Counted from the stretch's first letter, positions 2,420 through 34,800 are shown. The stretch is 64,000 nt of DNA from Chloroflexota bacterium (GCA_019873685.1 JAIOAT010000001.1:100419-164418); one strand, 5' to 3'. A program made the numbers and translations. Notes: generated by a model from the letters alone, not told the origin.

Positions 2420-2443
2420 AAGTCTCTCACCGGGAATGAGTTT

Positions 2444-6859: not shown

Positions 6860-8555
6860 TGGCTGATCGCGTGTTAGTCAGTCCTGGAAAGGATATCTGG
6901 CAGCGGCTGGATGACCGCCGAGTGCGCTACCGGTTGCTGGTAGCCGGCTTTGCGCTGCTGATGATCACCGTGGCGCTCATTGGCGGCTTTGTGATCGGCA
7001 CAACCGGCTATGGCTATGCGGTACTTTTCGGAGTCATCGGGGTGGTTGTGGCGGTGCTTGTTGCCGTACGGCCGGTGCTCGGTGTGTACATCCTGACCGT
7101 CAACGTGTATCTCAACCTGTCTGATCTTCTGGAAGTCAACCTGGGTATTCCCAGCGCGAATAAGTGGCTGGTTGCCCTGATCTTCGTGGGTGTGGTTGCC
7201 AACCATATCGTGTTGTATCGGCGTCCACTGGCCCTGGGCAGAGCACAATGGATTATCATCATTTACGGCGTTCTTCTGTTGATCGGGGCGTTGCAGGCTG
7301 AGGAACAATCTGTGGCGGTTGCCCAGTTCACTGACTGGGTGAAGGATTTTGTCATCCTGTTTATCGTCGTGCAGGTGACTACCAACGCTCGAGTCTGGAC
7401 GCGCATGCAATGGCTGCTGATTCTTTCGGCAGGATTAGTGGCGGCGTTGAGCGTCTACCAGATAGTCACCAACGATGTGAGCAATACCTTCTGGGGGCTG
7501 GCCAAGGCGCCGGTGCATCAGATTACCAGCGGGTTTGACAGTACCCGGGTGACCGGCCCGCTGGATGATCCTAACTTCTACGCCCAGATTTTGTTGATGG
7601 TTTTTCCGCTAGCTCTGTATCGATTTCTTGAGGAACGCCACCTTACCCTCCGCGTACTGGGTGGCGTGGCGGCGGCATTGATCGCGGCTGCGGCGATTTT
7701 CACATATTCACGTGGTGCGCTGTTCTCCCTGGCGGTTGTTGGAATACTGGTCACCCGTGAGCGACGGTGGAATCCCTACAAGGCTGCCGTGTACTGGGTG
7801 GCGTGGCGGCGGCATTGATCGCGGCTGCGGCGATTTTCACCTATTCGCGCGGTGCGCTGTTCTCCCTGGCGGTTGTTGGAATACTGGTCACCCGTGAGCG
7901 ACGGTGGAATCCCTACAAGGCTGCCGTGATCGCTGTTGCAGTTGTGGTTGTGCTGGTGGCCATCTTTCCGGTGGGATACTGGGAACGCTTTGTGCAGTTG
8001 CGCGACCTGTTTGTGTCGGATGCGGAGTTGCAGACAGAACGCTCTCTGCGCGGGCGCACAAGCGAAATGATCATCGCCTGGCAGATGTTCCTGGATCACC
8101 CGCTGTTGGGGGTCGGGCCGGGGAACTACGATAAGAACTACCTTAACTATTCATTCCTGCTGGGTATCGACAGCCGGCTGCAGGAACGGCAGGCGCATAG
8201 CTTGTACCTTGAGACGGCGGCGGAGCTAGGGGTGGTCGGCCTAGCAGTGTTGTTCGGCATAATCCTCAGCACGTTTGCCAGCCTGCGCAGCGCGAAGCGC
8301 ATGTTGAAGGCGAGCCATCGATCGGACCTGATACCCTGGGTGACCGGTCTGCAGTACGGTTTTACCTCTTATCTCATCACCAGCATCTTCCTGCATGGTG
8401 ACTACATTCGATATTTCTGGCTTCTGCTGGCTTTTGCTCTTTCCAGCGAAGGGATAGCGCGGTCGTTGCTGCAACAATACCGTGCGCGGAGGGAGCGCGA
8501 GGCGGCGGGGAACCAGAATCTGTTTGTCTTGCGAGAGACGGTACGGATTTCGTGA
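6859..8555 (+). pseudogene. Wzy/O-antigen-ligase family polymerase gene split by a 137-bp tandem duplication (track fragments 6859-7818 and 7767-8555)
   Basis: About 10 TM helices. Wzy_C-like motifs IFTYSRGALFSLAVVG and AHSLYLETAAELGVVGL. Both fragments encode the identical peptide VLGGVAAALIAAAAIFTYSRGALFSLAVVGILVTRERRWNPYKAAV. Deleting one 137-bp copy leaves 1560 nt, a single 519-aa ORF. The start overlaps the upstream stop (TAATG). Confidence 0.8.
7654..7927 (+). repeat. Direct tandem duplication, 2 x 137 bp (copies 7654-7790 and 7791-7927), 3 mismatches
   Basis: Read directly. Copy 2 repeats copy 1 except at 7704/7841 (a/c), 7710/7847 (a/g) and 7713/7850 (t/c). 137 is not a multiple of 3, so the host ORF is frame-shifted. 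Confidence 0.95.
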
Positions 8556-11600: not shown

Positions 11601-12070
11601 CGGATGCAGTGCGCGCTCTGGCGGATAACGTCTACTGGCGCGGAGACCTGGAAGGCGATGTGGTGTTTGTCTCGCCGAACACGATCGCCGTGATTGACAC
11701 GCGCACAGTGTATGCGCAGGAAGATCTGGTAACCGCGTTGCCAGAGCTGGCTACCCAGTCGGTTATAGCAGCTCAGGCGACGAGCACGCCCATCCCGGTC
11801 TATACAGTAACACCAGGCCCAACGCCTACGGCAACAGCGACCAACACACCGACGCCGGTCGTTACCGCAACGCCGATTGTTCCCTTGCCATCACCGACGG
11901 CGCCGACGCCGATCCCGACCTTCCCGCCGCTTGATCCGGAGCAACTGCAGCCTGCCCGGATCGGTCAGCCAGAGTGGGTCAATATCCTGCTGGTTGTTAC
12001 AGCGGTTGTGCTGGTCACCACGATACTGTTTGGTATCCTGGTCGCCGTACGTTCGCGGAGGCGCCCTTGA
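8630..12070 (+). CDS. Secreted, C-terminally membrane-anchored BcsB-like protein with two Cys-containing SH3b-like modules and a LysM domain
   Basis: 1146 aa. Signal peptide, then two about 70-aa modules each with 4 Cys (CQLYYVTV...CAGTGC...VVCVLG; CEAWEITV...CAAETC...QMCVKEYG). LysM is YVVRAGDTLQGLANRFSTNMDVIRQANAL...GQQLIIP (from nt 9452). Two BcsB-like repeats follow (FRLDAPTDWQLDGNNVLYLNLEYTQNLSP...ILNVRLDDTLISSTTL...DDFCNSNS...DLARYPEPF; VRFTAPASATIAPDAAVDLIFTYSGAL...VTVLINNTPIAS). A PT-rich linker and a C-terminal TM (WVNILLVVTAVVLVTTILFGILVAV) match the single C-terminal anchor of BcsB. Confidence 0.6.
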   Translation: MRLQVRLASLALLSGLVVLILAVIPGVTAQNPTPTLTPTPVPLPACQLYYVTVNEGVVRSCAGTGCSRVGGVRNQEVVCVLGVSETPGWLLIDLEPQNADSPIRYISADIVAPGLPGYTEDTECEAWEITVPEAIVRRCAAETCAVVGGLPQGTQMCVKEYGGQYEDWLYVDYSSYSPMNGWVSVDVAQRVPAGMPVVIPTPNRPLVIPESILSSAQAQPVALQATPSPTTGVELAPATLTPTATLPVCPPGAATVGGAGELPAYAAEYPFQFTYVVRAGDTLQGLANRFSTNMDVIRQANALQPAAAILVGQQLIIPVQTAEVPGQIVQPVSASVGAPTCVTATPTPILAAPQQVVASGPLIAQDVALAGFQVNNIDLVSPRSAAQFRLDAPTDWQLDGNNVLYLNLEYTQNLSPLADPMRPLVSILNVRLDDTLISSTTLTAANVGLQTLVIPLPSSLLVTPDRTNSHQISITFMADDFCNSNSLARAFIRSDLSYFHFEYHRLSPSLDLARYPEPFYHGTVIGTEPETVWLVLPDEPSLADLESAAGIAAALGQLTFGELRIRATLAGELTDQVRRENNLLLVGEIGKHALIDQLYAANALPTQLSGNVVRLNGQDIAESVGLVQLIANPDNPMRAIGVATGLNEAALRKAAQALSGPPSVLSLGGPLALVSDVRPKAAVPVGMRTETTLTFAELGVTQMLLAGIGTQTANVRFTAPASATIAPDAAVDLIFTYSGALGRGSTVTVLINNTPIASTLLALESVTGGVVHETDELGRNHLRGRIPPESIQPGAENTLTILVNGIDSNPDDCVFPDPLVAWFNVSPESSIFLPTQAAEPAAVTPLVSWFPVPFTSLPDLSDVLVSLPRAAGATEIEQGLRMVARLGAETVGGEAFRPRFAVGDLPEGVDLAQYHLIVIGRPSTNPLLAALNANLPQPFIPGTDILEQKLDDVVYQLPPGYDVGLLEMIKSPWAPERAILVIAGLGDRGQADAVRALADNVYWRGDLEGDVVFVSPNTIAVIDTRTVYAQEDLVTALPELATQSVIAAQATSTPIPVYTVTPGPTPTATATNTPTPVVTATPIVPLPSPTAPTPIPTFPPLDPEQLQPARIGQPEWVNILLVVTAVVLVTTILFGILVAVRSRRRP

Positions 12071-12288
12071 TGCTCCGCAGGATTTTCAGGACGATCCTGA
12101 TCATTCTGCTGGGGATGGTCATTGGCTGTGAAGCAACCAGTGCGCAGAATGCACCGCTGACATGGTGGGTGGTGGGTAGTACGGTAAAGGTGCTGCCCAC
12201 TACCGCTCCGCCTGCACAGCCAGGCACGGCGGGAATATGCCCCTTTCCAGATCGTGCTGCGCGCCAACCAGATCGCGCTCAAGTTTGA
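12070..12288 (+). other. Signal-peptide-encoding 5' fragment of the downstream DUF4091-like gene, separated from it by an apparent +1 frameshift
   Basis: The ATG at 12070 overlaps the upstream stop (TGATG). It encodes MLRRIFRTILIILLGMVIGCEATSAQNAPLTWWVVGSTVKVLPTT..., then runs out of frame. The frame of 12254-14242 is open back to 12188 and reads LRLHSQARREYAPFQIVLRA. Confidence 0.55.
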
Positions 12289-14242: not shown

Positions 14243-15357
14243 CAGGCAGGCGAGACTACAGCGTGCTGCTGGTGGATCTGGCGCGGGCCTATGGAGGCGC
14301 GGAAGTCCGCGTGCTCACCCAGGCCAGGGCCTTGCAGGATGACGTGGCGCGGTGCGCTGTAGCCACGCTGGCGGGCAGCCCGCTGCACCAGCGATTGTTG
14401 GCAGAAGGGCTGCCGGTTGAGACGATTGCCATCCAGCGTGGCAACCCGGTTATGGCCGGTGTGTTGCGCCGAACCATCCGCGCGGGCCGTTATCAGATCG
14501 TTGATGCCCACAATGTGCAGTCCATCCTGTGGGGGCATCTGGCGGCGCTGCTGGCCGGGGCGCGGGGACGGGTGGCGACGATCCACAGCGATTATGGCCG
14601 GGAATATCCTGGCGCAAAAGGGATATTTTATCGCAGTGTGCTCTGGCTCGACCGGTTTCTGGCCCGGCAGTACATCACTGTGACCGATGTGCTGCAGGCC
14701 AGCCTGACGGCCCGTGGCGATGGTTCCCGCAGTACCCTGATCTACAATGCGGTGCCCGTGCCGGAGGTGCCGTTGCGGTCGGTTGATCCGGTCATGCGTC
14801 CTGCATGGGGGTTTGGCGCAGAGGATTTTGTAGTGGCGATCATCGCCCGCCTGAAGCCGGTCAAGGGTCACCGGTATCTGCTGGAGGCCCTGGCGCGTCT
14901 GGCGGATCTGCCGCACATGAAGCTGCTGGTGGTGGGCGATGGCCCGCTGCGCCCGGCGCTGGAAGCGCAGGCGAATACGCTGGGGATTGCAGAGCGCGTG
15001 CACTTCTGTGGTTTCGTGGAGGATATCCCGGCGATCTTGCAGTCGGTCGATGCCGTCTGCCTGCCATCGCTGTCGGAGGCGCTGCCGTATGTGCTGCTGG
15101 AGGCAGCTGCTTACGCCCGGCCATTGGTGGTCACACAGGTCGGCGGGATGGCAACGCTCCTGCAGGATGGCGAGACGGCGCGTGTCGTGCCGCCACAGGA
15201 TGCAGCAGCCCTGGCGGAAGCCCTGCGCTGGGTAGCCACGCATCCTGTCGAGCGACAGGCGATGGGACTGGCGGCTTACGCGCTGGTCAAGCGTGCGTTC
15301 AGTGTGGAGACGATGGTGGCGAAGACGCTGCAAGTCTACGATCGGGCGCTGGCATGA
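14239..15357 (+). CDS. Family 4 glycosyltransferase (GT-B, retaining)
   Basis: 372 aa. EX7E-type C-terminal motif (LPSLSEALPYVLLEAAAYARPLVVTQVGG). The start overlaps the upstream stop (ATGA). Confidence 0.8.
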   Translation: MTGRRDYSVLLVDLARAYGGAEVRVLTQARALQDDVARCAVATLAGSPLHQRLLAEGLPVETIAIQRGNPVMAGVLRRTIRAGRYQIVDAHNVQSILWGHLAALLAGARGRVATIHSDYGREYPGAKGIFYRSVLWLDRFLARQYITVTDVLQASLTARGDGSRSTLIYNAVPVPEVPLRSVDPVMRPAWGFGAEDFVVAIIARLKPVKGHRYLLEALARLADLPHMKLLVVGDGPLRPALEAQANTLGIAERVHFCGFVEDIPAILQSVDAVCLPSLSEALPYVLLEAAAYARPLVVTQVGGMATLLQDGETARVVPPQDAAALAEALRWVATHPVERQAMGLAAYALVKRAFSVETMVAKTLQVYDRALA

Positions 15358-16397
15358 GCAAAGTACAGATTGCCTTTAAGGTCCTTATGGCGCTTAAAGC
15401 TCCCCGGTTGCTGGATGCTTACTGGGGAGCCGAACGACTGACTGTGCTGGCCTACCATCGGATTGCGGATCCAACTGCACCGGGGTTTAAGTACGATCCG
15501 CCGGTTGTGAGCGCTACACCGGAGAAGTTCGCCCTGCAGATGGCGTATATCCGGGAGCATTTCAATGTGGTTGATCTGGAAGCGGTGAACGCCTTCCTGC
15601 ATCATGGCAGGAGTCTACCACCGCGCCCGCTGCTCATCACGTTTGACGACGGGTATCTGGATAACTACACCCACGCCTATCCGGTCTTGAAGCGCCACGG
15701 TTTTCCTGCGGTGATCTTCCTCCTGACCAGCCGCATGGATAACCCGTTGCCAGCGTGGTGGGACGAGTGTGCCCATTACTTCCATCACACCCAGCGGCAG
15801 GCCGCTACTCTACCTTTGATAGGCGAGCGCGACCTGTCGTCTCCGGCGTTACGCCGGGCAGCGCGTGAGGCGCTGGTAAGGCAGCTCAAGCGCATCCCTG
15901 AGGCAGAGAAGCTGGCCGCGCTCCGGCAGACGGGCGAAGCGCTGCAGGTTGATCCGCCGGGTCCTGATCCCGATCTGTTTATGACCTGGGATCATGTGCG
16001 TGAACTCGTGAGCGCGGGGATTGCCTGCCAGCCGCACACGGTCAATCATCCGATTCTGGCGCGCGTTGATGAGGAAACTCAGCGACGTGAAATCGTCGGC
16101 TCGTGCGAGCGGATTCGGGAGGAAACCGGCCAGACGATCAGCGCGTTTGCCTACCCCAACGGCGGCGTGGGCGACTACACAGCGACCACTATGCGCCTGT
16201 TGCAGCAAGCCGACATCAGAACGGCATTCACGCTACTGGCAGGCCCGGTGCGCCCACAGGTGGCCCGGCAGCATCCGCTGGAGATCCCGCGGGTGTACCT
16301 CGGCGGGCGCGATACCGTGGAGCGGTTTGTGTTCAAAGTGATGGGTTTGCCAGCGTTGATGGAACGCCCGCGCTTCATCGGCCAGGCTGTGGTGTAG
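15354..16397 (+). CDS. Polysaccharide deacetylase (carbohydrate esterase family 4)
   Basis: The true start is ATG 15354 (ATGA overlap with the GT4 stop). The track ORF 14805-16397 carries an out-of-frame N-terminal extension. NodB-type motifs LTVLAYHRI, LLITFDDGYLDNYTHAYPVLKRHGFPAVIFL, QPHTVNHP. Confidence 0.8.
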   Translation: MSKVQIAFKVLMALKAPRLLDAYWGAERLTVLAYHRIADPTAPGFKYDPPVVSATPEKFALQMAYIREHFNVVDLEAVNAFLHHGRSLPPRPLLITFDDGYLDNYTHAYPVLKRHGFPAVIFLLTSRMDNPLPAWWDECAHYFHHTQRQAATLPLIGERDLSSPALRRAAREALVRQLKRIPEAEKLAALRQTGEALQVDPPGPDPDLFMTWDHVRELVSAGIACQPHTVNHPILARVDEETQRREIVGSCERIREETGQTISAFAYPNGGVGDYTATTMRLLQQADIRTAFTLLAGPVRPQVARQHPLEIPRVYLGGRDTVERFVFKVMGLPALMERPRFIGQAVV

Positions 16398-16443
16398 GGC
16401 ACAGGGCCTGGACGCCTTCGCCTGCAGCTAACCCTTACGAGAC

Positions 16444-23786: not shown

Positions 23787-25334
23787 TTACGGGGCATCCG
23801 GCTGCGCTTGGCGCAGGAAGGTCTGACGAATCTCCTCGGTTCGGTCGAAGAGTTTAGGTTCCAGCGCTGCCCACAAATCGGCTGGGGCGGCAATCTGGCC
23901 GCTCATGTTAGTTGCATAGGTCTGCAGCCAGGCGAAGAACGCTTCTGTGCCGATCTCCTGGCGCAGGGCGTGAAGAAACTGCGCTCCGCGTAGATAGACA
24001 GCGTTGATGTAGTCCCGAACGGTATTGAACTCATAGACGGTCGAGTCGACGAATCCTGTGGGATGGAAGCTATTGACGCGAAAATCCCACCACCAGTCGA
24101 CCAGGGGCGGGTAGCTTTCCTGCAGAAAGACGTATTCACTGTAGGTTGACAACGCCTCATCCAGCCAGGGGTGGCGGCTCTGATCATTGCCCACCCGGTG
24201 GTACCACCACTGGTGGGCAACCTCATGCGCCGTGATCAGGGTCAGGTAGGAAGCCGGATCGCCGCGATAAGAGCGGAACCACTCGCCGCCTACATAGACC
24301 AGCCCGCTGAATTCCATGCCGTCTGGAAAATCACTTTCCAGGATGATCAGGCGGTCATATGGATAGGAGCCATACAGATCGGCGAAGAGATTGAGGGCAG
24401 CTACTGCAGTATGCAGCGCCTGCTCTGCCGCTTCAGCGGGTGTGGACTCAAAGGTGTAAAGCTCGACCATGACTGTGCCATCAAGTGCAGGAGCAACGGT
24501 CTGGCGATAATTATCGCCAAGGCTGAGGGTGATTTCACGGGCGTTGGCCAGTTGATATCGCCAGCCGCATGACTCACGGCTCGCTGTGCCGGGGCCAACG
24601 ACCGTCATGGCCGGGGGCAGATTCTCCACAGCCAGGCACAGGTCAAAATCTGCGGCAGGCAAGACCGTCTGCTCGCCAACCGTGATGGGAACTGGTGTTA
24701 TCCATTGTCCTTCAGCACGCGCTGCTACCGCCGGGAACCAGAGGGCCAGGTTTAGCTGTCGATCGGAATAGCCCAGATATCCCTGTCGCCCAAAAGGGCC
24801 AGCGCCCATACGCGGAATGTCTACCGTGTAATCGAGGCTCAGGGTTACCTGGCAACCCGGTTGCAGCGGGGTTGGAAGGGAGACTGTCAGGCGTGCTCCT
24901 TCCAGAATGGCCTCAGAGGTGCCGGTTTCCTCAGCAATGACAACGTCTTCCAGGTGGAACACGCCGGGTTCCCGATTGGGCAGCACATACAGGACCAGTT
25001 GATCCAGCGACGTCTCTTCTGTATTGCGGAAGGTCACGTGCTGGTGCGCACCAAGACGTTTGAGCGCATAGTCAAGTTCCGCCCGGATCACGTAAGTGAT
25101 GGCCGGCCTATCATCGACAGGGGCGCAGCGTTCCGTTTGTCCTGCCGGTTCGGGCGTGGCTGTTGGGGACTGGTATAACGCGGATGACGGTGTGGCTGAT
25201 GTTGTCTGTATGGATATCGCGGTGGTTGTTGGCGCAGGTGGGGCGATCGTCGCCGGAGGAGCCGAGGGAAGGCAACCGATCATAAGAGCCAGTAACAGGA
25301 GACTAGAAAGGGTGGCGTTCATCAAGGGTTTCAT
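23787..25334 (-). CDS. M1-family (gluzincin) metallopeptidase, lipoprotein
   Basis: HEVAHQWWY-X-E (HEXXH-X18-E: HEVAHQWWYHRVGNDQSRHPWLDE). The start is trimmed to ATG 25334, giving the signal MKPLMNATLSSLLLLALMIGC (lipobox-like). Confidence 0.8.
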   Translation of the reverse strand: MKPLMNATLSSLLLLALMIGCLPSAPPATIAPPAPTTTAISIQTTSATPSSALYQSPTATPEPAGQTERCAPVDDRPAITYVIRAELDYALKRLGAHQHVTFRNTEETSLDQLVLYVLPNREPGVFHLEDVVIAEETGTSEAILEGARLTVSLPTPLQPGCQVTLSLDYTVDIPRMGAGPFGRQGYLGYSDRQLNLALWFPAVAARAEGQWITPVPITVGEQTVLPAADFDLCLAVENLPPAMTVVGPGTASRESCGWRYQLANAREITLSLGDNYRQTVAPALDGTVMVELYTFESTPAEAAEQALHTAVAALNLFADLYGSYPYDRLIILESDFPDGMEFSGLVYVGGEWFRSYRGDPASYLTLITAHEVAHQWWYHRVGNDQSRHPWLDEALSTYSEYVFLQESYPPLVDWWWDFRVNSFHPTGFVDSTVYEFNTVRDYINAVYLRGAQFLHALRQEIGTEAFFAWLQTYATNMSGQIAAPADLWAALEPKLFDRTEEIRQTFLRQAQPDAP

Positions 25335-25666
25335 CGCATGGCGTGCTGGCTGCACGGTGAATTCGCGGCCTGCGCAGAGACCCATTATATCCGGTGTCGG
25401 ACTACCCGGCGGCAAGTTACCTGCTGTGATTGCGCCAGGAATTGCCCCATCTGTTGATAGCTGTGCCGAACGTCGGCGATTTCTGTGAAGATCGTTACCG
25501 GCGCCAGCGCAGGATTCTTGCTCTTGTGCTGTGGCCGCTGTGCGGCTAGAATGGCGCGTGTTCTTCCTGCTACCCTGGATGCGTATCCTGCGTATCATCT
25601 GTGGGTTATAGGTAGCGTTAAATCCGCGCTCATTCCGCGATCATCCTGATCATGGGAGGGGGAATT

Positions 25667-26554
25667 ATGCAGCAACACATCGCCACGAAAACGGTCAGCT
25701 TGATCCGGCTCACTCGGTGGAAAGAATTCGTTCCTTTTACAGTCCCGGTAACAGTTTTTGCCGCACTGCTTTCCGGGCAACCGCTGGACTGGCGGCTGGC
25801 AGCGGTCACGGTGGCCAACATCCTGGCGGTCGCCTACGCCTTTATGATCAATGACATTGAGGATGCACCAGACGACTCGCGCGATCCGGCCCGTGCCGCC
25901 CGTAATCCTATTGCCATGGGGGAACTCTCCATCCGCTCCGGGTGGGTAGCATCTGTACTGGTGGCGTTGCTATCGCTGGTTCTCTATGCCTTTGGCGGCT
26001 GGTGGGTGCTGGGCATCGGCGTGCTGACGGTGCTGCTGTCGCATTTCTACTCCTGGAAGCCGATTCGTCTCAAAGCCTGGCCGGTGGCCGATGTGACCTC
26101 CCATTCGCTGATGCTGAGCGGGCTGCTTTTCCTGGCCGGTTATTTCACCTACGATGTGAATCCGGGATGGGTCTGGCTGGTGATGCTGGCTGTCACGCTC
26201 ATCTCAATATACGGCCAGCTTTATAACCAGCTGCGCGACTACGAAACTGACAAGGCAGCCGGGTTGCACAATACAGCGATCATTGTTGGCGAGCGCATGA
26301 CTCGCCTGTTGATGTATCTGTGTGTTGCCCTGGCGATTGTGTTTTTCCTCAGCGCGTTTGTGCTGGGCGTTCTGCCGATCTGGTTGCCATTTGTGGGTGT
26401 TGGTGTCTTCGCTGTGGTGATGTATCTGTACCGCCCTGGTATGGATATGCGCGGTGGACAGGTTGCCGACACCAGTGGAAACATCCAGATTCAATTTCTG
26501 ATTACGGCGAACGCAACTGTTGCTCTGTGGCTGGCCCTGGCGCTGGTAGGGTAG
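25667..26554 (+). CDS. UbiA-family aromatic prenyltransferase
   Basis: Asp-rich motif NDIEDAPDD and a second motif YNQLRDYETD, with about 8 TM helices. GGGAGGGGG Shine-Dalgarno lies ahead of ATG 25667. Confidence 0.8.
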   Translation: MQQHIATKTVSLIRLTRWKEFVPFTVPVTVFAALLSGQPLDWRLAAVTVANILAVAYAFMINDIEDAPDDSRDPARAARNPIAMGELSIRSGWVASVLVALLSLVLYAFGGWWVLGIGVLTVLLSHFYSWKPIRLKAWPVADVTSHSLMLSGLLFLAGYFTYDVNPGWVWLVMLAVTLISIYGQLYNQLRDYETDKAAGLHNTAIIVGERMTRLLMYLCVALAIVFFLSAFVLGVLPIWLPFVGVGVFAVVMYLYRPGMDMRGGQVADTSGNIQIQFLITANATVALWLALALVG

Positions 26555-26591
26555 GGCCGGGCTGCCGGTGCTGGTGCCGGATCGAGCTTGA

Positions 26592-26620
26592 CAGGCGCTC
26601 CATGTGGGCGCCTTTTGTTT
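26592..26620 (+). terminator. Putative intrinsic terminator after the UbiA-family gene
   Basis: AGGCGC (26593-26598) pairs with GCGCCT (26608-26613), followed by TTTTGTTT. Confidence 0.5.
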
Positions 26621-26718
26621 CGGTTGACGAATTTGGCGGATCGACACGCCATTGGCGTTGGGTTTGCCTTGTCACTACAATAGAGTAACAGCACTGCTGC
26701 ACCGACGGATACCAGGGT

Positions 26719-29700
26719 ATGGGCTTCAAGATTCTCATTGTCGATGATACGCCGGATACCGTGCAAATGCTGTCCGTCTGGTTGCAGGGGGATGGGTACC
26801 AGACTGTAGCCATCAGCAACTCACTGGACGCCGTATCGGTGATTCGACAGGAAAAGCCCGATCTGGTGCTCATCGATAGCGCTATGCCGGGCCGCGATGG
26901 CATCGAGACATGCCAGGAACTGCATGCCAACCCGCTTACGCGGCACATTCCCATTCTGTTGCTGAGCAGCAAGAACCCCGCTGAGGCCCGCGCCGATAGT
27001 CTGATGGCCGGCGCTGTTGACTACGTCAGCAAGCCGATGAACCTGCGCCAGCTTAGCGATCAGATCGCGGCCTGCCTTGCACCGCAGGAGCAGGGACTGC
27101 GGCCTGCAGACGCCCGCCGCATGGTTGATGAAGTTGTCTATGAGGCGCTGGAACTGCTGTCGTGCGATCTGGCCTGGCTGTTCCGGTATGACTCTGTGCA
27201 CAGGACGTTGGAGAGCCATGCCATCGCGGCGACGCTAGGGCGTGAAGCAGGACAGCGTTTATCAGCGCGGCTGGGCGTAGATGCCACGGCGTTGCAGGTA
27301 GGAGGGTTTGACAATGGCAGCCCGCTGGCGGCGGCGATCAGCACGCGGGAGACCGTGCTTGACCTGCCGCTGGAGCGGTTTCGCCAGCATCCTGATACCC
27401 AGTTGCTGTTTCAGGGCTTTTCGGCGCTGGGTGTGACGTCCATCAGCCTGATACCCCTGGCTCTGGCGCGGCAGGTGCTGGGCGTGCTGGTGGTGGGTTA
27501 CGTTCGCCCACGCGATCGGCATGGCGAGTCGCCGTGGCCGGCAATCACGCTGCTCAGCAGGCAGGCTGCTATGGCCCTTGACTATACGCGTCTGGCCAGT
27601 GTCCTGGCTGAGCAGGAAGAGACTCGGAAAGCCGAACATGCCTTCTTGACCACCGTGCTGGATACGATGGGCGATGGCCTGATCGTTATCGGCGAGCATG
27701 GTGAAATTGAATATGTCAACAACCGCCTGCTGCGGATGACCGAATACGGGCGTGAGGAACTGATCGGCCAGCGGGTCGATATGCTCTTCCACCCCGATGA
27801 TCGCCAGGCACTGGTCTACGGATTGCTGCACGAGCGCGGATCCACGATCAAGTTTGACCAGCGCCTCTACACGCGCAGCCAGCATGTGATTCCGGTGCTG
27901 CTGTCGCGTTCCTCTTTTGCGCGGATCGACCCGACCGCGCCGCAGCAGGTGCTGGTTCTAAGCGATCTGACCGTGCAAAAGAGCCGTGAGGAAGCGCTGG
28001 AACGGTACAGCCAGCAACTCCAGGCGCTGAACCGGGCGGCTGAGGCAATCACTTCATCGCTGACCCCCCAGGAAGTGATTCACGAAATCCTGACTGCGGC
28101 GATGGCTGTAGCCAATGCTGAGGGGGCTTCGGTGTTGTTGCGCAGCGACGACAACCCTGCTGAGCTGGTCTTCATGGCGGCGGTAGGGCCGGAAGCCGAG
28201 CGTCTGCATGGCATGCGGGTGCCGATCAATGAAGGGATTGCTGGCTGGGTGGTTCGGGAAGCTACCGGCCAGCTTGTGGTTGATACAGCGCAGGATGATC
28301 GCTTTTATCGGGGCGTTGACGCTCATTCCGGTTTGACGACGCGTTCGCTGATCGCCGTGCCGTTGATCGTGGCCGACCAGGTGATCGGTGTGCTGGAAGT
28401 GGTGAACAAACGCGCTGGTACTTTTGACCGTGCGGACATGGATTTGCTGGAGAGCATTGCCGGCACGGCAGCGGTAGCGATCGAGAATTCGCGACTGTTT
28501 GAACAGACACGCCGTCGGCTTAACGATCTGGGGACCCTGCTGGATGCCAGCGCGGCGGTGTCGTCAACACTTGATTTCGGCAGCGTTCTGGAGTTGATCG
28601 CCCGGCGCTTGCTGGACGCCCTGCATGTGGAACGTTGCCAGGTTATTTCCTGGGACCGCGGAACCAATACCCTGATCACGCTGGCTGAAGTGGTTGACGC
28701 CTACTGGCGGTCGGGGAGCGGGCCGCTGGTCGAGATCGCTGATTCGCCGCTACGCAACCGGGCGCTGACAGCGGGCCGTGCGCAGTATGTGCAGCTGGGC
28801 GATCCGTCAACGACGCCACAGGATCAGGCCGAGCTTATTGCGCTGGGCCAACAGGCGATGCTGGTGATCCCCCTGTGGTTTGGGCGCAAAGTCATTGGCC
28901 TGGCTTCAGTATGTAAGGGCGCGGGCAGCATAGCGCCTGCCGATATCGAGCATGTTGGCCGGATCGTCAGTAACTGGACAACCCGTGTTGAGCGCAGCCA
29001 GCAGCGGTGGGCTGAGAAATCATTCCTTGATGATCTCTGTAATTTGCTGCAAGCCGTCCCCGGCGTTATGTGGGTGCGGATAGAGGAGTGGCTCCCCCAG
29101 GAACGGCGGCTGCGCCGGTTGCGGGAGACCGGCTTCGCACTCTGGAGCGATCGGGAAGGCGCTCAGCTTGATCTGGATCAGCATCCCACGATGAAACGGG
29201 TGCTTTCCATCGCCCAGCCCAGGGTAGTGGAACGGCAGAATCTGGAGGCCGATCCGCGCGAGCAGGACCTGCTGGCGCAGGTTGGCGGAGAGGTCTGCCT
29301 GATGGCCCCATTTATTATCCGGGGGCAGCCGGAGGGCCTGGTTAAGCTGATTGACTCGGATAGCCGACGCACATTTGATGTCGAGCAGGTCTCGCTATGC
29401 CAGGGTATCGCCAATGTGGGAGGGCCTGGTTAAGCTGATTGACTCGGATAGCCGACGCACATTTGATGTCGAGCAGGTCTCGCTATGCCAGGGTATCGCC
29501 AATGTGGTTGGCAATGCCCTGGAGAACGCCTATCTCTATCAGAGTCTGGAGCGTCGTGCGGCGGCGCTGGAAGCTGCTTACGCTGAACTGAAGCAGGCCG
29601 ATCAGCTCAAGGAGGAGTTACTGCAAAATCTTTCCCATGAGATTCAGACCCCGCTGATGCATGTGATGGGGTACATGGAACTGATGTATAACGAAGCCTT

Positions 29701-30343
29701 TGGGCCGCTAAATGCTGAACAGCGCGAGAAGCTCTCATTCGTTGTGGAACGGGCACGGCATCTTTCCGAACTGGCCAGGAACATCATCACCGTGCAGGCA
29801 CTGCAGGCCCGGACGCTGCATATGCAACCCTCCAGCCTGGATGAGATTCTCCCCCGCGTGATCAGCCAGTGGGAACCGGAAGCAGCCAAGCGTTCGATCT
29901 CCCTGAAAATGCAGCTGCCAGACAAACTCCCCCGGGTGATGGCTGACCCCAACCGTCTGGCGGAAGTGGTCGGACACCTGTTGAGCAATGCGGTGAAATT
30001 CAGCCCGACCGGTGCGCCGATCGAAGTGACTGCTCACGAACGCGAAGGCGTTGTTGAGGTTAGTGTTCGTGATCATGGGCCGGGGATCGCGCCTGAGCAT
30101 CATGAACGGATCTTCCGGCGCTTCTATCAGGTGGATGGCGGGGTGTCGCGCAAGCATGGAGGCGCCGGGCTGGGTCTGGCCATTGTCCAGGAAGTCATCA
30201 CCCAGCATGGTGGGCGGGTCTGGGTGGAAAGCGAACCGGGGCAGGGCAGTACTTTCTTTTTCACCGTGCCCAAAGCTTCGACCGTCTCCACGGCGGATTT
30301 TGAACCGACAACGGGCGTCTGGGACGAGACATGGCAGGGCTAG
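26719..30343 (+). pseudogene. Hybrid sensor histidine kinase (receiver-GAF-PAS-GAF-GAF-HisKA-HATPase) split by an 88-bp tandem duplication (track fragments 26719-29433 and 29351-30343)
   Basis: N-terminal receiver (ILIVDDTPD...DLVLIDSAMPGRDG), PAS (GDGLIVIGEHGEIEYVNN), GAF segments, HisKA H-box (LQNLSHEIQTPL), HATPase N/G boxes (LLSNAVKF, RDHGPGI, GGAGLGLAIV). Both fragments encode EGLVKLIDSDSRRTFDVEQVSLCQGIANV. Deleting one copy leaves 3537 nt, a single 1178-aa ORF. Confidence 0.85.
29332..29507 (+). repeat. Perfect direct tandem duplication, 2 x 88 bp (29332-29419 and 29420-29507)
   Basis: Read directly. The unit GAGGGCCTGGTTAAGCTGATTGACTCGGATAGCCGACGCACATTTGATGTCGAGCAGGTCTCGCTATGCCAGGGTATCGCCAATGTGG occurs twice back to back with no mismatch. 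88 is not a multiple of 3. Confidence 0.95.
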
Positions 30344-30373
30344 ACGCCTGCGCTTCACTGGAATGGATCGCTG

Positions 30374-30751
30374 ATGACCACTATTCACCTGGCACTGAAC
30401 AATGCTTATATTCTCTTCTCATTTGCCCTTGGGGTCTGGTGCATCATCAAGCTGGTGCGCAACCAGGGGCTTGACGGTCAGTTCTGGGGGGCGGTCGCGC
30501 TTAATACCCTGCTGGCCGTGGTGATCTTGCTGCTGGCGGCGGCAATGACCCTGGCAGGTATACGTCCTCACCGGGCGGTCTACTTTCTGTACGGGGTTTA
30601 CTTTGCCATTGTGCTGCCCGGCACCTTCTTCCTGTTGCGCGGGCGCGACGATCGCACGGCAGTGATCGTCTTCGGGATCGTGACGATTTTCTCCGGCGCG
30701 GCAGCCACCCGTGTACCTTTGCTGGTGGAACCCTGGAGTGCGGCACCCTGA
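30374..30751 (+). CDS. Small integral membrane protein (4 predicted TM helices), unknown function
   Basis: 125 aa, four hydrophobic stretches, no recognisable motif. Confidence 0.5.
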   Translation: MTTIHLALNNAYILFSFALGVWCIIKLVRNQGLDGQFWGAVALNTLLAVVILLLAAAMTLAGIRPHRAVYFLYGVYFAIVLPGTFFLLRGRDDRTAVIVFGIVTIFSGAAATRVPLLVEPWSAAP

Positions 30752-30818
30752 GCGACGCCTTCCCAAGTGGATGTCTGCCGGGCGCGTCCGGCTCGCGGTG
30801 GGGCAGAGGCGAGATGTA

Positions 30819-32138
30819 ATGGGACGGCACGCCGGGATGTTTGTGGCCGTCTGGGCACTTGTTGCCACCGTGGTGGTTGCCTGTGCGCCGTTGCCCGCGC
30901 CGGTGATCATCACCGATGTGGATGCTACCCGGACGGCTGTGGCACCTCCTGCCACTTCTTCCGCATCAGCACCGGCAACCGGAACAGGGCGCACGCTGCG
31001 ACTGGGAGTCACGTCCTGGCGTGGTTTTGACCCGCTTGATGCTAGCGACGCCGGGACGGAGCAGGTACAGGCGCTGGTCTACGAAACCCTGCTGACTTAT
31101 GATCCAGCCGGTAACCTGATGCCTCTGCTGGCCGCAGATCTACCGGCCGCTGGCGATGATGGTCTGTCCTGGCAGGTAAACCTGCGGCCTGGCGTCACCT
31201 TTCACGATGGCACGCCTCTTGATGCCCTGGTGGCAGCGGAGGCGCTCCAACGTCCTCTGGAGATTGCCGTCCAGGAGGAGACCCTACCTCTAGCTGTGCA
31301 TGTGTATCGGCAGCTGGTCGAGGCGGTTAGCGGTGAAGGCATGACGCTGACGTTCCGATTACGCGAGCCGTTCCGCACTTTTCCAGCCTTACTGGCGGAA
31401 CAGGCGCTGGCGCTGACTCATGGCATCGGAATCGGAAGTGGTCCCTTCCAGGTATCCGGCAGCGCACCGGAAGATGGCCTGCTCAGGCTGACACGCTATG
31501 AAGGCTATCATGGCGGCGCGGCTGCCCTGGAGATGGTGGAAATTACCCTGGGCCAGCAGGAGCCGGACAGCGGAGCGGTTATAATGGAGTCAGGCGGGGA
31601 TAGGCTGCTCGACCTGATCGCCGGGGAATCACGGGCCTCTGAAGACGGTTTCGATTACAGTGAACCATGGTATGCCGCTGAACGGGAGCAGTGGCTGATC
31701 CTCGATGCCGGGCGCGCCGCGCTGCTGCCTGCCGGGGTGATTCCTGTGCTCGCTCTTGCCGTAGAGGGATCGACGGAGGCATACCAGCTTGCCCTGGCGG
31801 AGATTGGCCTGCCGGATGGCTTTGACCTGGCGGCTCGCGCTGTTACCGGGCAGGAGGGGTCGCTGGCGGCGGCATTGCGCCGTTTTGCGCCGGTTCACAT
31901 TCAGACTACGGGCGCGGGCCGGGATACACCCGCTGATGCCCTGATCGTTGCCTGGACGCGTGACTGGGAACGCGCCTGGTGGTTGCGGTTCGCGGGGTAT
32001 GCTGATGATGATCTGGCCAGGGCGGGCGTGCGGCTGGATGCCCGGCCGATGGTGACGTATGTGCGTTCCGGTTTGACCGGGCTGGGAGTCACTTCCGGCG
32101 GTTGGGCGCGCGTTACTGCACAGACGGCCCGATCGTAA
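30819..32138 (+). CDS. Family 5 solute-binding-protein-like lipoprotein (peptide/nickel type), orphan
   Basis: The start is trimmed to ATG 30819 (GAGG upstream). Lipobox-like VVVACAP. SBP_bac_5-like segment LLAADLPAAGDDGLSWQVNLRPGVTFHDGTPLDA. No cognate permease or ATPase is adjacent. Confidence 0.55.
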   Translation: MGRHAGMFVAVWALVATVVVACAPLPAPVIITDVDATRTAVAPPATSSASAPATGTGRTLRLGVTSWRGFDPLDASDAGTEQVQALVYETLLTYDPAGNLMPLLAADLPAAGDDGLSWQVNLRPGVTFHDGTPLDALVAAEALQRPLEIAVQEETLPLAVHVYRQLVEAVSGEGMTLTFRLREPFRTFPALLAEQALALTHGIGIGSGPFQVSGSAPEDGLLRLTRYEGYHGGAAALEMVEITLGQQEPDSGAVIMESGGDRLLDLIAGESRASEDGFDYSEPWYAAEREQWLILDAGRAALLPAGVIPVLALAVEGSTEAYQLALAEIGLPDGFDLAARAVTGQEGSLAAALRRFAPVHIQTTGAGRDTPADALIVAWTRDWERAWWLRFAGYADDDLARAGVRLDARPMVTYVRSGLTGLGVTSGGWARVTAQTARS

Positions 32139-32160
32139 CGGCGGACACTGGAGCATCGAA

Positions 32161-34800
32161 GTGAAGCTGATCCTGACGCACGAGAACGCCGACTTTGACG
32201 CTGTGGCTGCCCAGCTGGCGGCCTATAAGCTGGAGCCGACGGCAATTCCAGTGTTGCCGCGCCGCCTGAACTACAATGTCCGGGACTTCCTGCATCTCTA
32301 TGGCAGCGCCCTTCCGCACATGACGGTGCGCGATCTGCCGCGCGGGCCGGTTGATTCGGTCACGGTTGTGGATACCCAGAGCGTGCTGACAGTACGCGGG
32401 ATGCGGCCCAACACCCCGGCGCATATCATTGACCACCATCCTTTGAGCGAGCCATTGCGTCCGCACCAGACCTATTCCGGTGAGCCAGTTGGGGCGACCA
32501 CCACGCTGCTGGTAGAGTTGATCCGGGAAGCTGGCGTCACACTGACGCCGATCGAAGCGACACTGTTGACGCTGGGAATCTACGAAGATACTGGCTCGTT
32601 ACTCTATGGCACGACTACGGCGCGTGATATTGCGGCGGCGGCCTGGCTGGTGGCAAAAGGGGCAGACCTCGATGTGGTGCGCCGCTTCCTGCAGCACCCG
32701 CTGAATGAGGAGCAGCGCGAGCTGTACGATCGCTTGCTTCAGAATACGAGCGTTGTGGACGTTCATGGTCATGCGGTAGCGATCGCAGCTGTTGGGCTGG
32801 AGGGCAACATTGACCAGATTTCGACGGTGGCCCATAAGCTGCGGGAACTGCTGGAGCCTGCGGCGCTGTTTATGCTGGTGCAGATGGGGTCACGGGTGCA
32901 ACTGGTGGCCCGTAGCACGGTTGACGAGATTGACGTGGGACGGATTGCGGAACAGCTCGGCGGGGGCGGGCATAGCCGGGCGGCTGCCGCTCTGATCGAG
33001 GATGGTGACTTGAGCGCTACGCGGCGCAAGCTGGAGGCGCTGCTTGAAGACTTGGTGGAACCGGCGGTCAAAGTGGCTGACCTGATGTCAACCGGCGTCG
33101 TCCGTACTGTACCGGCGGATATGTCAGTGCGGGAGATTTCCCAGGAGATGCGGCGCAGCGGGCATGAGGGCTACCCGGTTGTACAGGATGGGGCGCTGGT
33201 GGGTCTGCTGACGCGCCAGGCCGTGGACAAGGCCATGGCTCACCGACTGGGGCATCTGCCGGTCTCCCAGATCATGGAGAGCGGGCGGGTCTTTGTCCAG
33301 CCGTCCGATTCGATTGGCTACCTGCAGGAGCAGATGATGCGTTCCGGCTGGGGACAGATTCCGGTTGTCGATGCGGACGGCAACCTGATTGGCATCGTGA
33401 CGCGAACGGATCTGATCAAACGCTGGGGACAGCCCGATAACGGCATCTCCCGCCGCAAAGAGATCGTGCGCCGGCTGGAAGCCGCCCTTTCACCCGGCCT
33501 GCTGCATCTGGTGCGGGTAGTCAGCCAGCAGGCCCAGGAGATGAATCTGGGGCTGTACTGTGTGGGCGGTTTCGTGCGCGACCTGCTGCTTGCCCGTCCC
33601 AATACAGATATCGATCTGGTTGTCGAGGGCGATGCCATCGCCCTGGTTCGCCAGCTGGTGGAACGGTACGGCGGGGCGATGCGCAAACACGCGCAGTTCG
33701 GCACGGCCACCTGGCTTCTGGATGCGAAGGTTGCCGCGTCCTTTGGCGGGGGGGGCGATTGGCCGGATACCCTTGACTTTGTGACGGCTCGGACAGAGTT
33801 CTATGAAAATCCGACGGCGCTCCCAACGGTAGAGCAGAGTTCGATCAAGCTTGACCTGCACCGCCGGGACTTCACCATCAACACGCTGGCGATTCGCCTG
33901 GCGCCGGAGCCGTTCGGCCAGTTGCTGGACTTCTGGGGCGGCGAGCGCGATCTGCGGGCCGGCCAGATTCGGGTACTGCATAGCCTGAGTTTTGTTGATG
34001 ACCCGACGCGTATTTTGCGTGCTGCGCGTTTTGAACAGCGATTTGGCTTCCGTATTGAGGAACGCACGCTTGGTCTGATCGAAAAGGCGTTGCCGCTGCT
34101 GGATCGGGTGAGCGGCCCGCGGCTGCGCCATGAGTTGGAGTTAATCCTGGCTGAGGCGCGGCCTGAACTGGTATTGCGGCGGTTGCAGGATCTGGGGGTG
34201 TTGGCGCGTTTGCAGCCCGATCTGGCGGCTGACGATTGGCTGTTTGCCGCGTTTGAAGCCCTGCGCCAGGCCCGCCAGACGCCACCCTGGACGCTCAGGG
34301 AGATGACCAATACACGCGACGGCTGGGAGCTGGCACAGTTTGTGGTGTTGTGCTGCCGTCTTAAGGTAGAAGATGCTGAGCGGATCGGGCGGAGGTTGCA
34401 GGTCAAACGCCGGACACTGGATGAAGTCGCCGACGGTATCAAGACTTACCGTATGCGGCTGCCTGCGCTGGCTGAATGGCAGAAGCCCAGCACGGTTGTG
34501 CGGCTGCTGGGTGGCTTGAGTGATGTCGGACTGGTTGTCGCCTGGGCCATTGCACCGACTTACCCAGCCCGGACGCAGATTGTCCGCTACGTCACCGAGT
34601 GGAAGGCTGTCCGCCAGACGCTGACCGGCCACGATCTGCGTGCGTTGGGCGTTCCGCCCGGCCCGGAGTATGGGCGCTTGCTCAGGCGACTGCGTGACGC
34701 CCGACTGGATGGCGAAGTTCAGACCCCGGAAGACGAACGGGCGCTGGCTTTGCAGCTTCTGGCTGAGTTCAAAGAAGGGAATCATGACGCTCAGGAATGA
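32161..34800 (+). CDS. DHH/DHHA1 phosphoesterase + CBS pair + tRNA nucleotidyltransferase/poly(A) polymerase family fusion protein
   Basis: 879 aa. THENADFDAV (DHH region), GGGGHSRAAAA (DHHA1), two CBS modules (VADLMSTGVVRTV...; VSQIMESGRVFV...), then the PolyA_pol head GLYCVGGFVRDLLLARPNTDIDLVVEGD and RRDFTINTLA. Confidence 0.8.
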   Translation: MKLILTHENADFDAVAAQLAAYKLEPTAIPVLPRRLNYNVRDFLHLYGSALPHMTVRDLPRGPVDSVTVVDTQSVLTVRGMRPNTPAHIIDHHPLSEPLRPHQTYSGEPVGATTTLLVELIREAGVTLTPIEATLLTLGIYEDTGSLLYGTTTARDIAAAAWLVAKGADLDVVRRFLQHPLNEEQRELYDRLLQNTSVVDVHGHAVAIAAVGLEGNIDQISTVAHKLRELLEPAALFMLVQMGSRVQLVARSTVDEIDVGRIAEQLGGGGHSRAAAALIEDGDLSATRRKLEALLEDLVEPAVKVADLMSTGVVRTVPADMSVREISQEMRRSGHEGYPVVQDGALVGLLTRQAVDKAMAHRLGHLPVSQIMESGRVFVQPSDSIGYLQEQMMRSGWGQIPVVDADGNLIGIVTRTDLIKRWGQPDNGISRRKEIVRRLEAALSPGLLHLVRVVSQQAQEMNLGLYCVGGFVRDLLLARPNTDIDLVVEGDAIALVRQLVERYGGAMRKHAQFGTATWLLDAKVAASFGGGGDWPDTLDFVTARTEFYENPTALPTVEQSSIKLDLHRRDFTINTLAIRLAPEPFGQLLDFWGGERDLRAGQIRVLHSLSFVDDPTRILRAARFEQRFGFRIEERTLGLIEKALPLLDRVSGPRLRHELELILAEARPELVLRRLQDLGVLARLQPDLAADDWLFAAFEALRQARQTPPWTLREMTNTRDGWELAQFVVLCCRLKVEDAERIGRRLQVKRRTLDEVADGIKTYRMRLPALAEWQKPSTVVRLLGGLSDVGLVVAWAIAPTYPARTQIVRYVTEWKAVRQTLTGHDLRALGVPPGPEYGRLLRRLRDARLDGEVQTPEDERALALQLLAEFKEGNHDAQE

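What the first reader, a model, noticed from the sequence alone, without database searches (positions are those of the whole stretch)
29332..29507. Perfect 88-bp frame-breaking tandem duplication inside a large hybrid histidine kinase
Seen: an 88-bp unit occurs twice back to back with no mismatch. It sits at the junction between the last GAF domain and the HisKA dimerisation domain and duplicates the peptide EGLVKLIDSDSRRTFDVEQVSLCQGIANV. Because 88 is not divisible by 3, the sensor part (26719-29433) is separated from the kinase core (29351-30343). Deleting one copy gives an intact 1178-aa receiver-GAF-PAS-GAF-GAF-HisKA-HATPase protein.

Inference: this is an assembly or contig-joining artefact, a very recent slippage event, or a reversible genetic switch. 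If real, it uncouples the sensing domains from an autonomously translated kinase core, since ORF 29351 has its own ATG.
Basis: seen in the sequence. Interest (0 to 1): 0.55.

Follow-up and report, generated by a model that had tools for sequence, protein, structure and literature searches.

The report
Assembly-made duplication in a kinase gene
The perfect 88-bp back-to-back duplication that splits this sensor kinase gene is really in the sequence, but it is almost certainly an error of this metagenome assembly, because an independent assembly of the same strain has one copy and an intact gene.

Summary
Bases 29331-29418 and 29419-29506 are identical 88-bp tandem copies. They split a hybrid sensor histidine kinase into a 904-aa ORF and a 309/330-aa ORF, and removing one copy gives an intact 1178-aa protein.

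The duplication is most likely an assembly artefact, for four reasons.
1. A Logan contig from SRA run SRR16606022 (Sativali hot-spring metagenome) matches the window at 4828/4828 bases left of the junction and 4522/4524 right of it. It carries one copy and encodes exactly the repaired protein.
2. Six further fetched loci from five other runs and one NCBI metagenome-assembled genome (MAG) are single-copy, as are 13 aligned orthologs. The duplication-junction 25-mer is absent from all 21 fetched loci.
3. The window holds a second frame-breaking tandem duplication (137 bp, 7650-7923, in a Wzy-like gene). Its copies differ only at third-codon positions and carry two different natural alleles, which is what an uncollapsed overlap of two strains' contig ends would give.
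4. A third frame-breaking lesion, a 23-bp deletion at 12223, hits a conserved 731-aa gene.

The window comes from an unannotated 395,833-bp NCBI contig and appears to be a metagenome assembly. The gene shows purifying selection in both halves.

A real recent duplication or a reversible switch is not excluded without reads, but I estimate it at about 10% together. Interest is low, except as a quality flag for this assembly.

The parts
29331..29418 (+). Copy 1 of the 88-bp unit. It encodes aa 872-900 (EGLVKLIDSDSRRTFDVEQVSLCQGIANV), the C-terminal end of the last GAF domain.
29419..29506 (+). Copy 2 of the 88-bp unit, 100% identical to copy 1. The G at 29507 is 1 bp of junction microhomology. 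This is the surplus copy that is absent from the same-strain contig L020 and from the other six single-copy HK loci fetched (L001-L006).
26719..29433 (+). N-terminal ORF (904 aa) of the split kinase gene: REC, GAF-like, PAS, GAF, GAF-like, GAF-like, then an out-of-frame tail GGPG and a stop. It is in the protein collection as P0121 (NCBI, 395,833-bp contig).
29414..30343 (+). C-terminal ORF. It is 309 aa from ATG 29414 (= P0122); the mechanical ORF starts at TTG 29351 (330 aa). It holds the repeated GAF end, a coiled-coil linker, HisKA (H-box SHEIQTPL) and HATPase_c.
7650..7923 (+). A second frame-breaking tandem duplication (2 x 137 bp) in a Wzy_C/O-antigen-ligase-like gene (6859-8555; 519 aa once one copy is removed). 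The copies differ at 7704, 7710 and 7713, plus 7653 inside the junction microhomology CCG(C/T)G. All differences are at third codon positions and synonymous. Copy 1 carries the allele of the same-species Logan strain. Copy 2 carries the allele of the relative L007.
12223..12224 (+). Site of a 23-bp deletion. AGGCGCCCCTCCTCCTGCATGTG is present in L008-L010, and a homologous 23 bp is present in L007. The deletion frameshifts a conserved 731-aa gene (12070-14242).
29875..29893 (+). Two third-codon-position SNPs (A at 29875, T at 29893). They are the only differences from the same-strain contig L020 across 9.3 kb. They show that closely related haplotypes exist in this population close to the join.

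Best explanation
The 88-bp duplication is a local assembly error in a metagenome-assembled contig.

The organism's real gene is a single intact 3537-nt ORF. It encodes an 1178-aa cytoplasmic hybrid sensor histidine kinase: receiver, GAF-like, PAS, GAF, two GAF-like regions, HisKA, HATPase_c.

The likely origin is that two sequence pieces overlapped by 88 bp and were laid end to end instead of being merged. This could happen at a scaffold join whose true gap was negative and which a gap-closing step then sealed.

The same process left a 137-bp duplication at 7650-7923, where the overlapping ends came from two co-occurring strains and therefore differ at three synonymous sites. It probably also produced the 23-bp deletion at 12223.

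What is shown: the duplication is in this record; the same strain has the single-copy allele; sister lesions exist; one of them contains two haplotypes.

What is inferred: which software step made the error, and that run SRR16606022 or a sister sample is the source of this assembly.
For: 1. Same-strain single copy. Logan contig SRR16606022_148527 (L020, 9263 bp) aligns to window 24592-29419 at 100.000% (4828 bp, 0 mismatches, 0 gaps) and to 29419-33942 at 99.956% (2 mismatches). The two alignments overlap by 88 bp on the contig, so it has one copy. Its 1178-aa product is identical to the repaired window protein.

2. Single copy elsewhere. L001-L003 are single-copy (98.7% nucleotide identity; runs SRR31366474, SRR31359997, SRR31366473). 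So are L004 (GCA_013178165.1), L005 and L006. Thirteen orthologs at 37-100% identity have one copy of this conserved segment. The top 17 hits of the protein search are 1155-1187 aa.

3. Junction test. The duplication-junction 25-mer occurs in 0 of 21 loci. The normal junction 25-mer occurs in 6.

4. Only this record is broken. The broken ORFs (904 and 309 aa) are on record only from one NCBI contig of 395,833 bp, never from Logan.

5. The 137-bp duplication. A second tandem duplication lies 21.5 kb upstream.
- It is also frame-breaking. Its copies differ only at third codon positions, and either repair gives the same 519-aa protein.
- Copy 1 equals the allele of L008-L012, and copy 2 equals the allele of L007.
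- Real duplicates start identical, and a dead gene would not be expected to accumulate only synonymous changes that match natural alleles.

6. The 23-bp deletion. A third frame-breaking lesion sits in a gene that is 731 aa in L008 and intact at this site in L007-L010. The other indels against the sister strain are benign: 1 bp and 2 bp intergenic, 3 bp in frame.

7. No decay in the gene. There are 38 nucleotide differences from the sister strain, 32 of them at third positions, and only 5 amino-acid changes, including one in the kinase half.

8. A perfect overlap is expected here. The 88-bp unit has no SNP among the same-species strains, so an uncollapsed overlap would be mismatch-free.

9. Literature. 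Chen et al. 2020 describe duplicate sequence left at scaffold joins whose flanks overlap (PMC7111523). SRR16606022 is the Sativali hot-spring metagenome, attributed to Narsing Rao et al. 2022 (PMC10787698). A hot-spring MAG paper sharing author W-J Li (my own recollection for that paper's author list; he is an author of Narsing Rao et al. [quoted passage not shown]
Against: - No reads could be inspected, so the junction's lack of read support is inferred, not seen.
- The window has no N runs or other marks of a join.
- Lengths of 88 and 137 bp do not match k or k-1 of the usual assembler k-mer lists (my own knowledge of the defaults). The error therefore cannot be a simple untrimmed de Bruijn overlap.
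- The window's own assembly record could not be identified or retrieved, so its pipeline and source run are unknown.
- L020 could come from a sister sample in which the allele truly differs.
- The 88-bp copies are identical, so unlike the 137-bp case they carry no internal haplotype evidence.
Confidence: 0.87

Rival explanations
1. The duplication is a real, very recent tandem duplication (replication slippage or illegitimate recombination) in the sampled lineage. It inactivates or splits the kinase gene and has no regulatory role. The single-copy contig L020 would then represent the ancestral allele in the same or a sister population.
For: - The copies are perfectly identical, and the gene shows no decay, which fits a very young event.
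- Population microdiversity exists close by (2 SNPs against L020), so alleles can differ between near-identical genomes.
- There are no Ns or other formal marks of a join.
Against: - Only 1 bp of microhomology flanks the unit. My own understanding is that slippage duplications usually arise between longer short direct repeats.
- This reading requires three independent frame-breaking events in conserved genes within 22 kb of one genome. One of them would also need later conversion of one copy to a foreign synonymous allele.
- The junction is absent from all other assemblies.
- The L020 contig runs unbroken through the unit. That would not be expected of a k=31 graph assembly if junction k-mers were abundant (inference from how such assemblers work).
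Confidence: 0.08
2. The duplication is a reversible genetic switch. An unstable 88-bp duplication would toggle the population between an intact sensor kinase and a split form: a sensor fragment plus an autonomously translated kinase core starting at ATG 29414, which overlaps the upstream stop codon.
For: - Both states are on record for essentially the same strain: two copies in the window and one copy in L020.
- The junction brings a pre-existing ATG (29414) into frame with copy 2, 15 nt before the upstream stop at 29431-29433. Translational coupling is therefore conceivable.
- From general knowledge, tandem direct repeats of about 100 bp collapse at high frequency in bacteria.
Against: - The two-copy state is seen in one assembly only.
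- That assembly also contains a demonstrably chimeric duplication and a frame-breaking deletion.
- No recurrence appears in the related loci fetched or in the 13 aligned orthologs.
- With 1 bp of microhomology, re-formation of exactly this duplication would be rare. The switch would effectively run one way.
- No repeat tract or recombinase lies at the site.
Confidence: 0.03

Closest known systems
Local assembly errors at scaffold joins in metagenome-assembled genomes (Chen et al. 2020, Genome Res 30:315, PMC7111523: Ns inserted during scaffolding despite overlapping flanks, leaving duplicate sequence)
   Same: - Short duplicate sequence sits at a point inside a MAG contig.
- It breaks a gene that is intact in every independent assembly.
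- It co-occurs with other local errors.
- The sister lesion shows that the two copies come from two co-occurring strains, the situation that the paper says fragments such assemblies.
   Different: - No Ns remain between the copies here, so a further gap-closing or joining step has to be assumed.
- The pipeline of this assembly is unknown.
Spontaneous tandem duplications by replication slippage and their RecA-dependent or RecA-independent collapse (classical bacterial genetics; my own knowledge, not tested here)
   Same: The structure is head-to-tail with perfect copies, and the length falls in the range where such events occur and revert.
   Different: - Only 1 bp of flanking microhomology is present.
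- Three frame-breaking lesions sit in one 22-kb stretch.
- One duplication has copies carrying different natural alleles.
Phase variation by repeat-number change in contingency loci (my own knowledge)
   Same: Gain or loss of a repeat unit whose length is not a multiple of three would switch the reading frame on and off.
   Different: - Contingency loci use many copies of 1-10-bp units and recur across strains.
- Here there are two copies of an 88-bp unique coding segment, seen once, with no recurrence in relatives.
Cytoplasmic multi-GAF/PAS hybrid sensor histidine kinases of Anaerolineae (for example NPV65572.1, 'GAF domain-containing protein', in GCA_013178165.1)
   Same: The repaired gene is a full-length ortholog.
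- It has the same length (1178 aa).
- It has the same Pfam domains.
- It has the same neighbours: UbiA upstream, and a 125-aa protein, SBP_bac_5 and a DHH-CBS-PolyA_pol gene downstream.
   Different: Nothing differs once the surplus copy is removed. As deposited, the gene is split in two.

Membership tests
Assembly join artefact (uncollapsed overlap of sequence ends) | The feature is absent from an independent assembly of the same strain. | tested here: met
   L020 (Logan, SRR16606022) is 100.000% and 99.956% identical on the two sides and has one copy.
Assembly join artefact (uncollapsed overlap of sequence ends) | Other local errors of the same kind occur in the same assembly. | tested here: met
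   A 137-bp frame-breaking tandem duplication lies at 7650-7923 and a 23-bp frame-breaking deletion at 12223. Both are absent from all relatives fetched.
Assembly join artefact (uncollapsed overlap of sequence ends) | The two copies derive from different templates or haplotypes. | tested here: inconclusive
   This is met for the 137-bp duplication: copy 1 carries the L008-L012 allele, copy 2 the L007 allele, and all differences are synonymous. It is uninformative for the 88-bp unit, which has no SNP among the same-species strains.
Assembly join artefact (uncollapsed overlap of sequence ends) | No read spans the duplication junction, and depth over the copies is anomalous. | not testable with these tools
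   No read data are available. The unbroken Logan contig is only an indirect proxy.
Assembly join artefact (uncollapsed overlap of sequence ends) | Formal marks of a join are present: N runs, or an overlap length equal to the assembler's k or k-1. | tested here: not met
   The window has 0 Ns. Lengths of 88 and 137 bp do not match common k values (my own knowledge of assembler defaults). A gap-closing step would have to be assumed.
Hybrid sensor histidine kinase (two-component system) | A HisKA dimerisation/phosphoacceptor domain with the conserved His, plus an HATPase_c catalytic domain. | tested here: met
   HisKA scores 6.6e-10 and HATPase_c 6.4e-35 in ORF 29351-30343. The H-box SHEIQTPL is readable in the translation.
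Hybrid sensor histidine kinase (two-component system) | Receiver and sensor domains lie on the same polypeptide as the kinase core. | tested here: met
   This is not so in the window as deposited, where the gene is split. It is so in the same-strain contig L020 and in the other fetched HK loci and the full-length orthologs: Response_reg 3.3e-25, PAS, and GAF on one ORF of about 1178 aa.
Reversible tandem-duplication or phase-variation switch | Both alleles are shown to coexist in one population. | not testable with these tools
   The two-copy allele is seen only in the window. The one-copy allele is seen in L020. Whether they come from one sample is unknown.
Reversible tandem-duplication or phase-variation switch | The variable site recurs in related strains or species. 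| tested here: not met
   The junction is absent from 21 loci, and 13 orthologs are single-copy.
Slippage-generated tandem duplication | Short direct repeats (microhomology) flank the duplicated unit. | tested here: inconclusive
   The 88-bp unit is flanked by only 1 bp (G). The 137-bp unit has an imperfect 5-mer, CCGCG/CCGTG.

The most novel reading that the evidence does not exclude
The two-copy allele is real and coexists with the one-copy allele in the Sativali hot-spring Anaerolineae population. It would be an unstable, recombination-reversible 88-bp duplication that toggles an 1178-aa multi-GAF hybrid kinase between an intact sensor and a split form. In the split form, the kinase core would be re-initiated at ATG 29414, which overlaps the upstream stop.
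Probability: 0.04. Interest if true: 0.5.

Novelty: not a real feature. Interest (0 to 1): 0.06.

Why it matters
The main value is data quality. This deposited contig carries at least three local assembly errors within 22 kb. Each turns a conserved gene into an apparent pseudogene or split gene: an O-antigen-ligase-like gene, a 731-aa protein of unknown function, and a hybrid histidine kinase.

Gene calls from this record are already in protein collections as fragments of 904, 309, 319 and 262 aa. Anyone counting pseudogenes, split kinases or 'orphan' kinase cores in this genome would be misled.

The case also gives a practical test for such artefacts without reads. Check whether the copies of a tandem duplication carry different natural, synonymous alleles, and look for a near-identical contig in an independent read-level assembly such as Logan.

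If the duplication were real after all, it would be a modest example of an unstable duplication uncoupling sensing from kinase activity.

Tried and rejected
- Retrieving the window's own record. The look-up of encoding contigs failed for the 904-aa ORF, P0122, the 1146-aa, 423-aa and 174-aa window proteins. The source accession and pipeline therefore stay unknown.
- Genome-contig scan with P0001. It found only distant relatives (60% identity or less), not the source genome.
- Exact 31-mer of the unit in JGI metagenome contigs. It gave 0 hits, so there is no population evidence from that collection.
- Looking for same-strain contigs across the 137-bp and 23-bp lesions. The repaired 519-aa and 731-aa proteins are not in the collection. 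P0253 turned out to come from the other strain's run, SRR31392930. Same-strain confirmation therefore exists only for the 88-bp site.
- Rfam scan of the window. No hits, so no RNA element explains the repeat.
- k-mer overlap as the cause. Rejected because 88 and 137 bp do not equal the usual k or k-1, and the 137-bp copies have mismatches.
- Long-read homopolymer-type error profile. Rejected because, across 38 kb compared with the sister strain, there are almost no small indels.
- Literature on gap closers creating duplications. The TRITEX paper's 'artificial duplication' refers to BAC assemblies, not GapCloser. Narsing Rao et al. 2022 is not held. Only Chen et al. 2020 was directly relevant.
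- A change of strain identity across the 88-bp junction. Identity to L001 is 98.69% on both sides, so this was uninformative.

Full report
**1. The observation**

Tandem Repeats Finder reports a single array at 29331-29507 with period 88, 2.0 copies, 100% matches and no indels. The repeat finder places the copies at 29331-29418 and 29419-29506, and a string comparison confirms they are identical.

The match extends one base past two full copies (G at 29507), so the junction has 1 bp of microhomology. The ORFs are 26719-29433 (904 aa) and 29351-30343 (330 aa). Removing one copy gives a 3537-nt ORF of 1178 aa.

Three details need correcting.
- ORF 29351 begins with TTG. The ATG is at 29414, which is where the 309-aa gene call on record starts (P0122). 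That ATG lies in the last bases of copy 1 and is brought into frame only by the duplication.
- The duplicated peptide (aa 872-900) is the C-terminal end of the last GAF domain (Pfam GAF profile positions 10-133 of 133), not an inter-domain linker.
- The protein has four GAF-like regions, two of them below Pfam's cut-off.

**2. The gene**

The repaired protein contains Response_reg, PAS, GAF, HisKA and HATPase_c domains. It has many full-length orthologs, and the top 17 hits of the protein search are 1155-1187 aa. Those that carry a name are from Anaerolineae/Chloroflexota metagenome-assembled genomes (MAGs).

Gene order around it is conserved. UbiA lies upstream. A 125-aa protein, SBP_bac_5 and a DHH-CBS-PolyA_pol gene lie downstream.

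In an alignment of 13 orthologs spanning 37-100% identity, the duplicated segment is one of the best conserved stretches and occurs once in every sequence.

**3. The decisive comparison**

The 90% cluster of the repaired protein contains the window's own two fragments. They come only from NCBI, on one 395,833-bp contig without protein accessions. The cluster also contains several 1178-aa members.

One member, P0124, lies on Logan contig SRR16606022_148527 (locus L020, 9263 bp).
- L020 aligns to window 24592-29419 at 100.000% (4828 bp, no mismatch, no gap).
- It aligns to window 29419-33942 at 99.956% (2 mismatches).
- The two alignments overlap by 88 bp on the contig, so L020 has one copy of the unit.
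- Its protein is identical to the repaired window protein.
- The two mismatches (29875, 29893) are third-codon-position changes.

This is therefore the same strain, assembled independently from raw reads, with an intact gene. SRR16606022 is the Sativali hot-spring metagenome from India (PMC10787698). That paper attributes the metagenome to Narsing Rao et al. 2022, a study of Chloroflexi MAGs.

A de Bruijn contig that runs unbroken through the unit also argues against the two-copy allele being abundant in that run. A fixed tandem duplication creates a loop at which such contigs normally break. This point is inference from how these assemblers work.

**4. Other assemblies**

L001-L003 come from three further runs. 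They are 98.7% identical to the window, have no indel other than the 88 bp, and are single-copy. L004 (GCA_013178165.1), L005 and L006 are 87-90% identical and also single-copy.

The duplication-junction 25-mer occurs in none of the 21 fetched loci. The normal junction 25-mer occurs in six.

Against the 98.7% strain, the gene has 38 nucleotide differences, 32 of them at third positions, and 5 amino-acid changes, one in the kinase half. Both halves are therefore under purifying selection and show no decay.

**5. The window contains more lesions of the same kind**

A whole-window scan found a second tandem duplication at 7650-7923: 2 x 137 bp at 97% identity. It is also not a multiple of three. 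It splits a Wzy_C/O-antigen-ligase-like gene into ORFs of 319 and 262 aa. Removing either copy gives the same 519-aa protein, because all differences between the copies are synonymous third-position changes.

One of the four differences (7653) lies in an imperfect junction microhomology, CCG(C/T)G. The other three (7704, 7710, 7713) define two alleles.
- Copy 1 reads ACA..TCA..CGT, the allele of the same-species strain in five Logan loci (L008-L012).
- Copy 2 reads ACC..TCG..CGC, the allele of the more distant relative L007.

A genuine duplication starts with identical copies. A frameshifted dead gene would not be expected to collect only synonymous changes that reproduce a natural allele. Two overlapping sequence ends from co-occurring strains that were not merged because of the mismatches explain the pattern directly.

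A third lesion is a 23-bp deletion at 12223 relative to L008-L010, with a homologous 23 bp also present in L007. It frameshifts a gene that is 731 aa in L008 and intact at this site in those relatives.

The remaining indels between the window and the sister strain over 38 kb are harmless: 1 bp and 2 bp intergenic, and 3 bp in frame. Base-level quality is therefore good, and the three larger frame-breaking lesions stand out as a separate class.

The 88-bp unit has no SNP among the same-species strains. An uncollapsed overlap at that place would necessarily be perfect.

**6. The most likely mechanism**

The contig appears to be a metagenome assembly from a population with strain microdiversity. 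Overlapping ends were concatenated rather than merged, and one join lost 23 bp.

Chen et al. 2020 describe this class of error: Ns inserted during scaffolding although the flanks overlap, leaving duplicate sequence (PMC7111523). [quoted passage not shown] Li is an author of Narsing Rao et al. 2022; his authorship of PMC6783470 is my own recollection, not seen in a tool result. Sealing such a gap would leave exactly an N-free tandem duplication.

That this pipeline produced this contig is an inference. I could not retrieve the record.

Points against the artefact reading:
- no Ns are present;
- 88 and 137 bp do not match usual k-mer sizes;
- no reads could be examined.

**7. Rivals**

A real, very young duplication remains possible, at about 8%. 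It would require three independent frame-breaking events within 22 kb, plus a conversion of one copy of the 137-bp duplication to a foreign synonymous allele.

The reversible-switch idea is at about 3%. In its favour, both states are on record for near-identical sequence, and the ATG at 29414 overlaps the upstream stop (29431-29433). Against it, the two-copy state exists only in this error-prone record, does not recur in any relative, and with 1 bp of microhomology would rarely re-form.

**8. Comparison with known things, and verdict**

The repaired gene is an ordinary member of the multi-GAF/PAS hybrid histidine kinases of Anaerolineae. The duplication belongs with the local assembly errors of MAGs, not with phase-variable loci or slippage duplications.

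Novelty: not a real biological feature. Interest is low (0.06). Its value is as a quality flag for the deposited genome and for the fragment proteins derived from it.

Mapping the source reads across 29,200-29,650, 7,550-8,050 and 12,150-12,300 would settle the matter.

Noticed in passing
window 7650-7923 (gene 6859-8555): A second frame-breaking tandem duplication (2 x 137 bp, 97% identity) lies in a Wzy_C/O-antigen-ligase-like gene. The copies differ only at synonymous third-codon positions and carry two different natural alleles: copy 1 matches L008-L012 and copy 2 matches L007. This indicates a chimeric join of two strains.
   Followed up: yes
window 12223|12224 (gene 12070-14242): A 23-bp deletion relative to the same-species loci L008-L010 and the relative L007 frameshifts a conserved 731-aa protein with no Pfam hit on record. 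It is probably another local assembly error. No same-strain contig covering the site could be obtained.
   Followed up: partly
window 29875 and 29893: These are the only two differences from the same-strain Logan contig L020 over 9.3 kb. Both are third-codon-position changes in the kinase core. At 29875 the window's A is unique among the loci compared. At 29893 L020 and the 98.7% strain share C, while the window's T also occurs in L004-L006. Closely related haplotypes therefore exist in this population near the join.
   Followed up: partly
window ~1200-16400: This looks like an exopolysaccharide gene cluster: GT2 and Bac_transf genes, an APH-family gene, a GGDEF diguanylate cyclase, the Wzy-like gene, a 1146-aa LysM/BcsB-like protein, the 731-aa unknown protein, a GT4 glycosyltransferase and a polysaccharide deacetylase. 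Domains are taken from the gene calls on the near-identical loci L008-L010. Two of the three lesions fall inside this cluster.
   Followed up: no
window 1126, 3236, 4228: Small indels against the 98.7% sister strain: 1 bp in an A-run (intergenic), 3 bp in frame inside the Bac_transf gene, and 2 bp intergenic. They look like ordinary strain differences, in contrast to the three frame-breaking lesions.
   Followed up: partly
whole window: No Rfam family reaches its gathering score anywhere in the 64 kb. GC content is about 0.55-0.64, and GC skew is positive in every 2-kb bin on the + strand.
   Followed up: no
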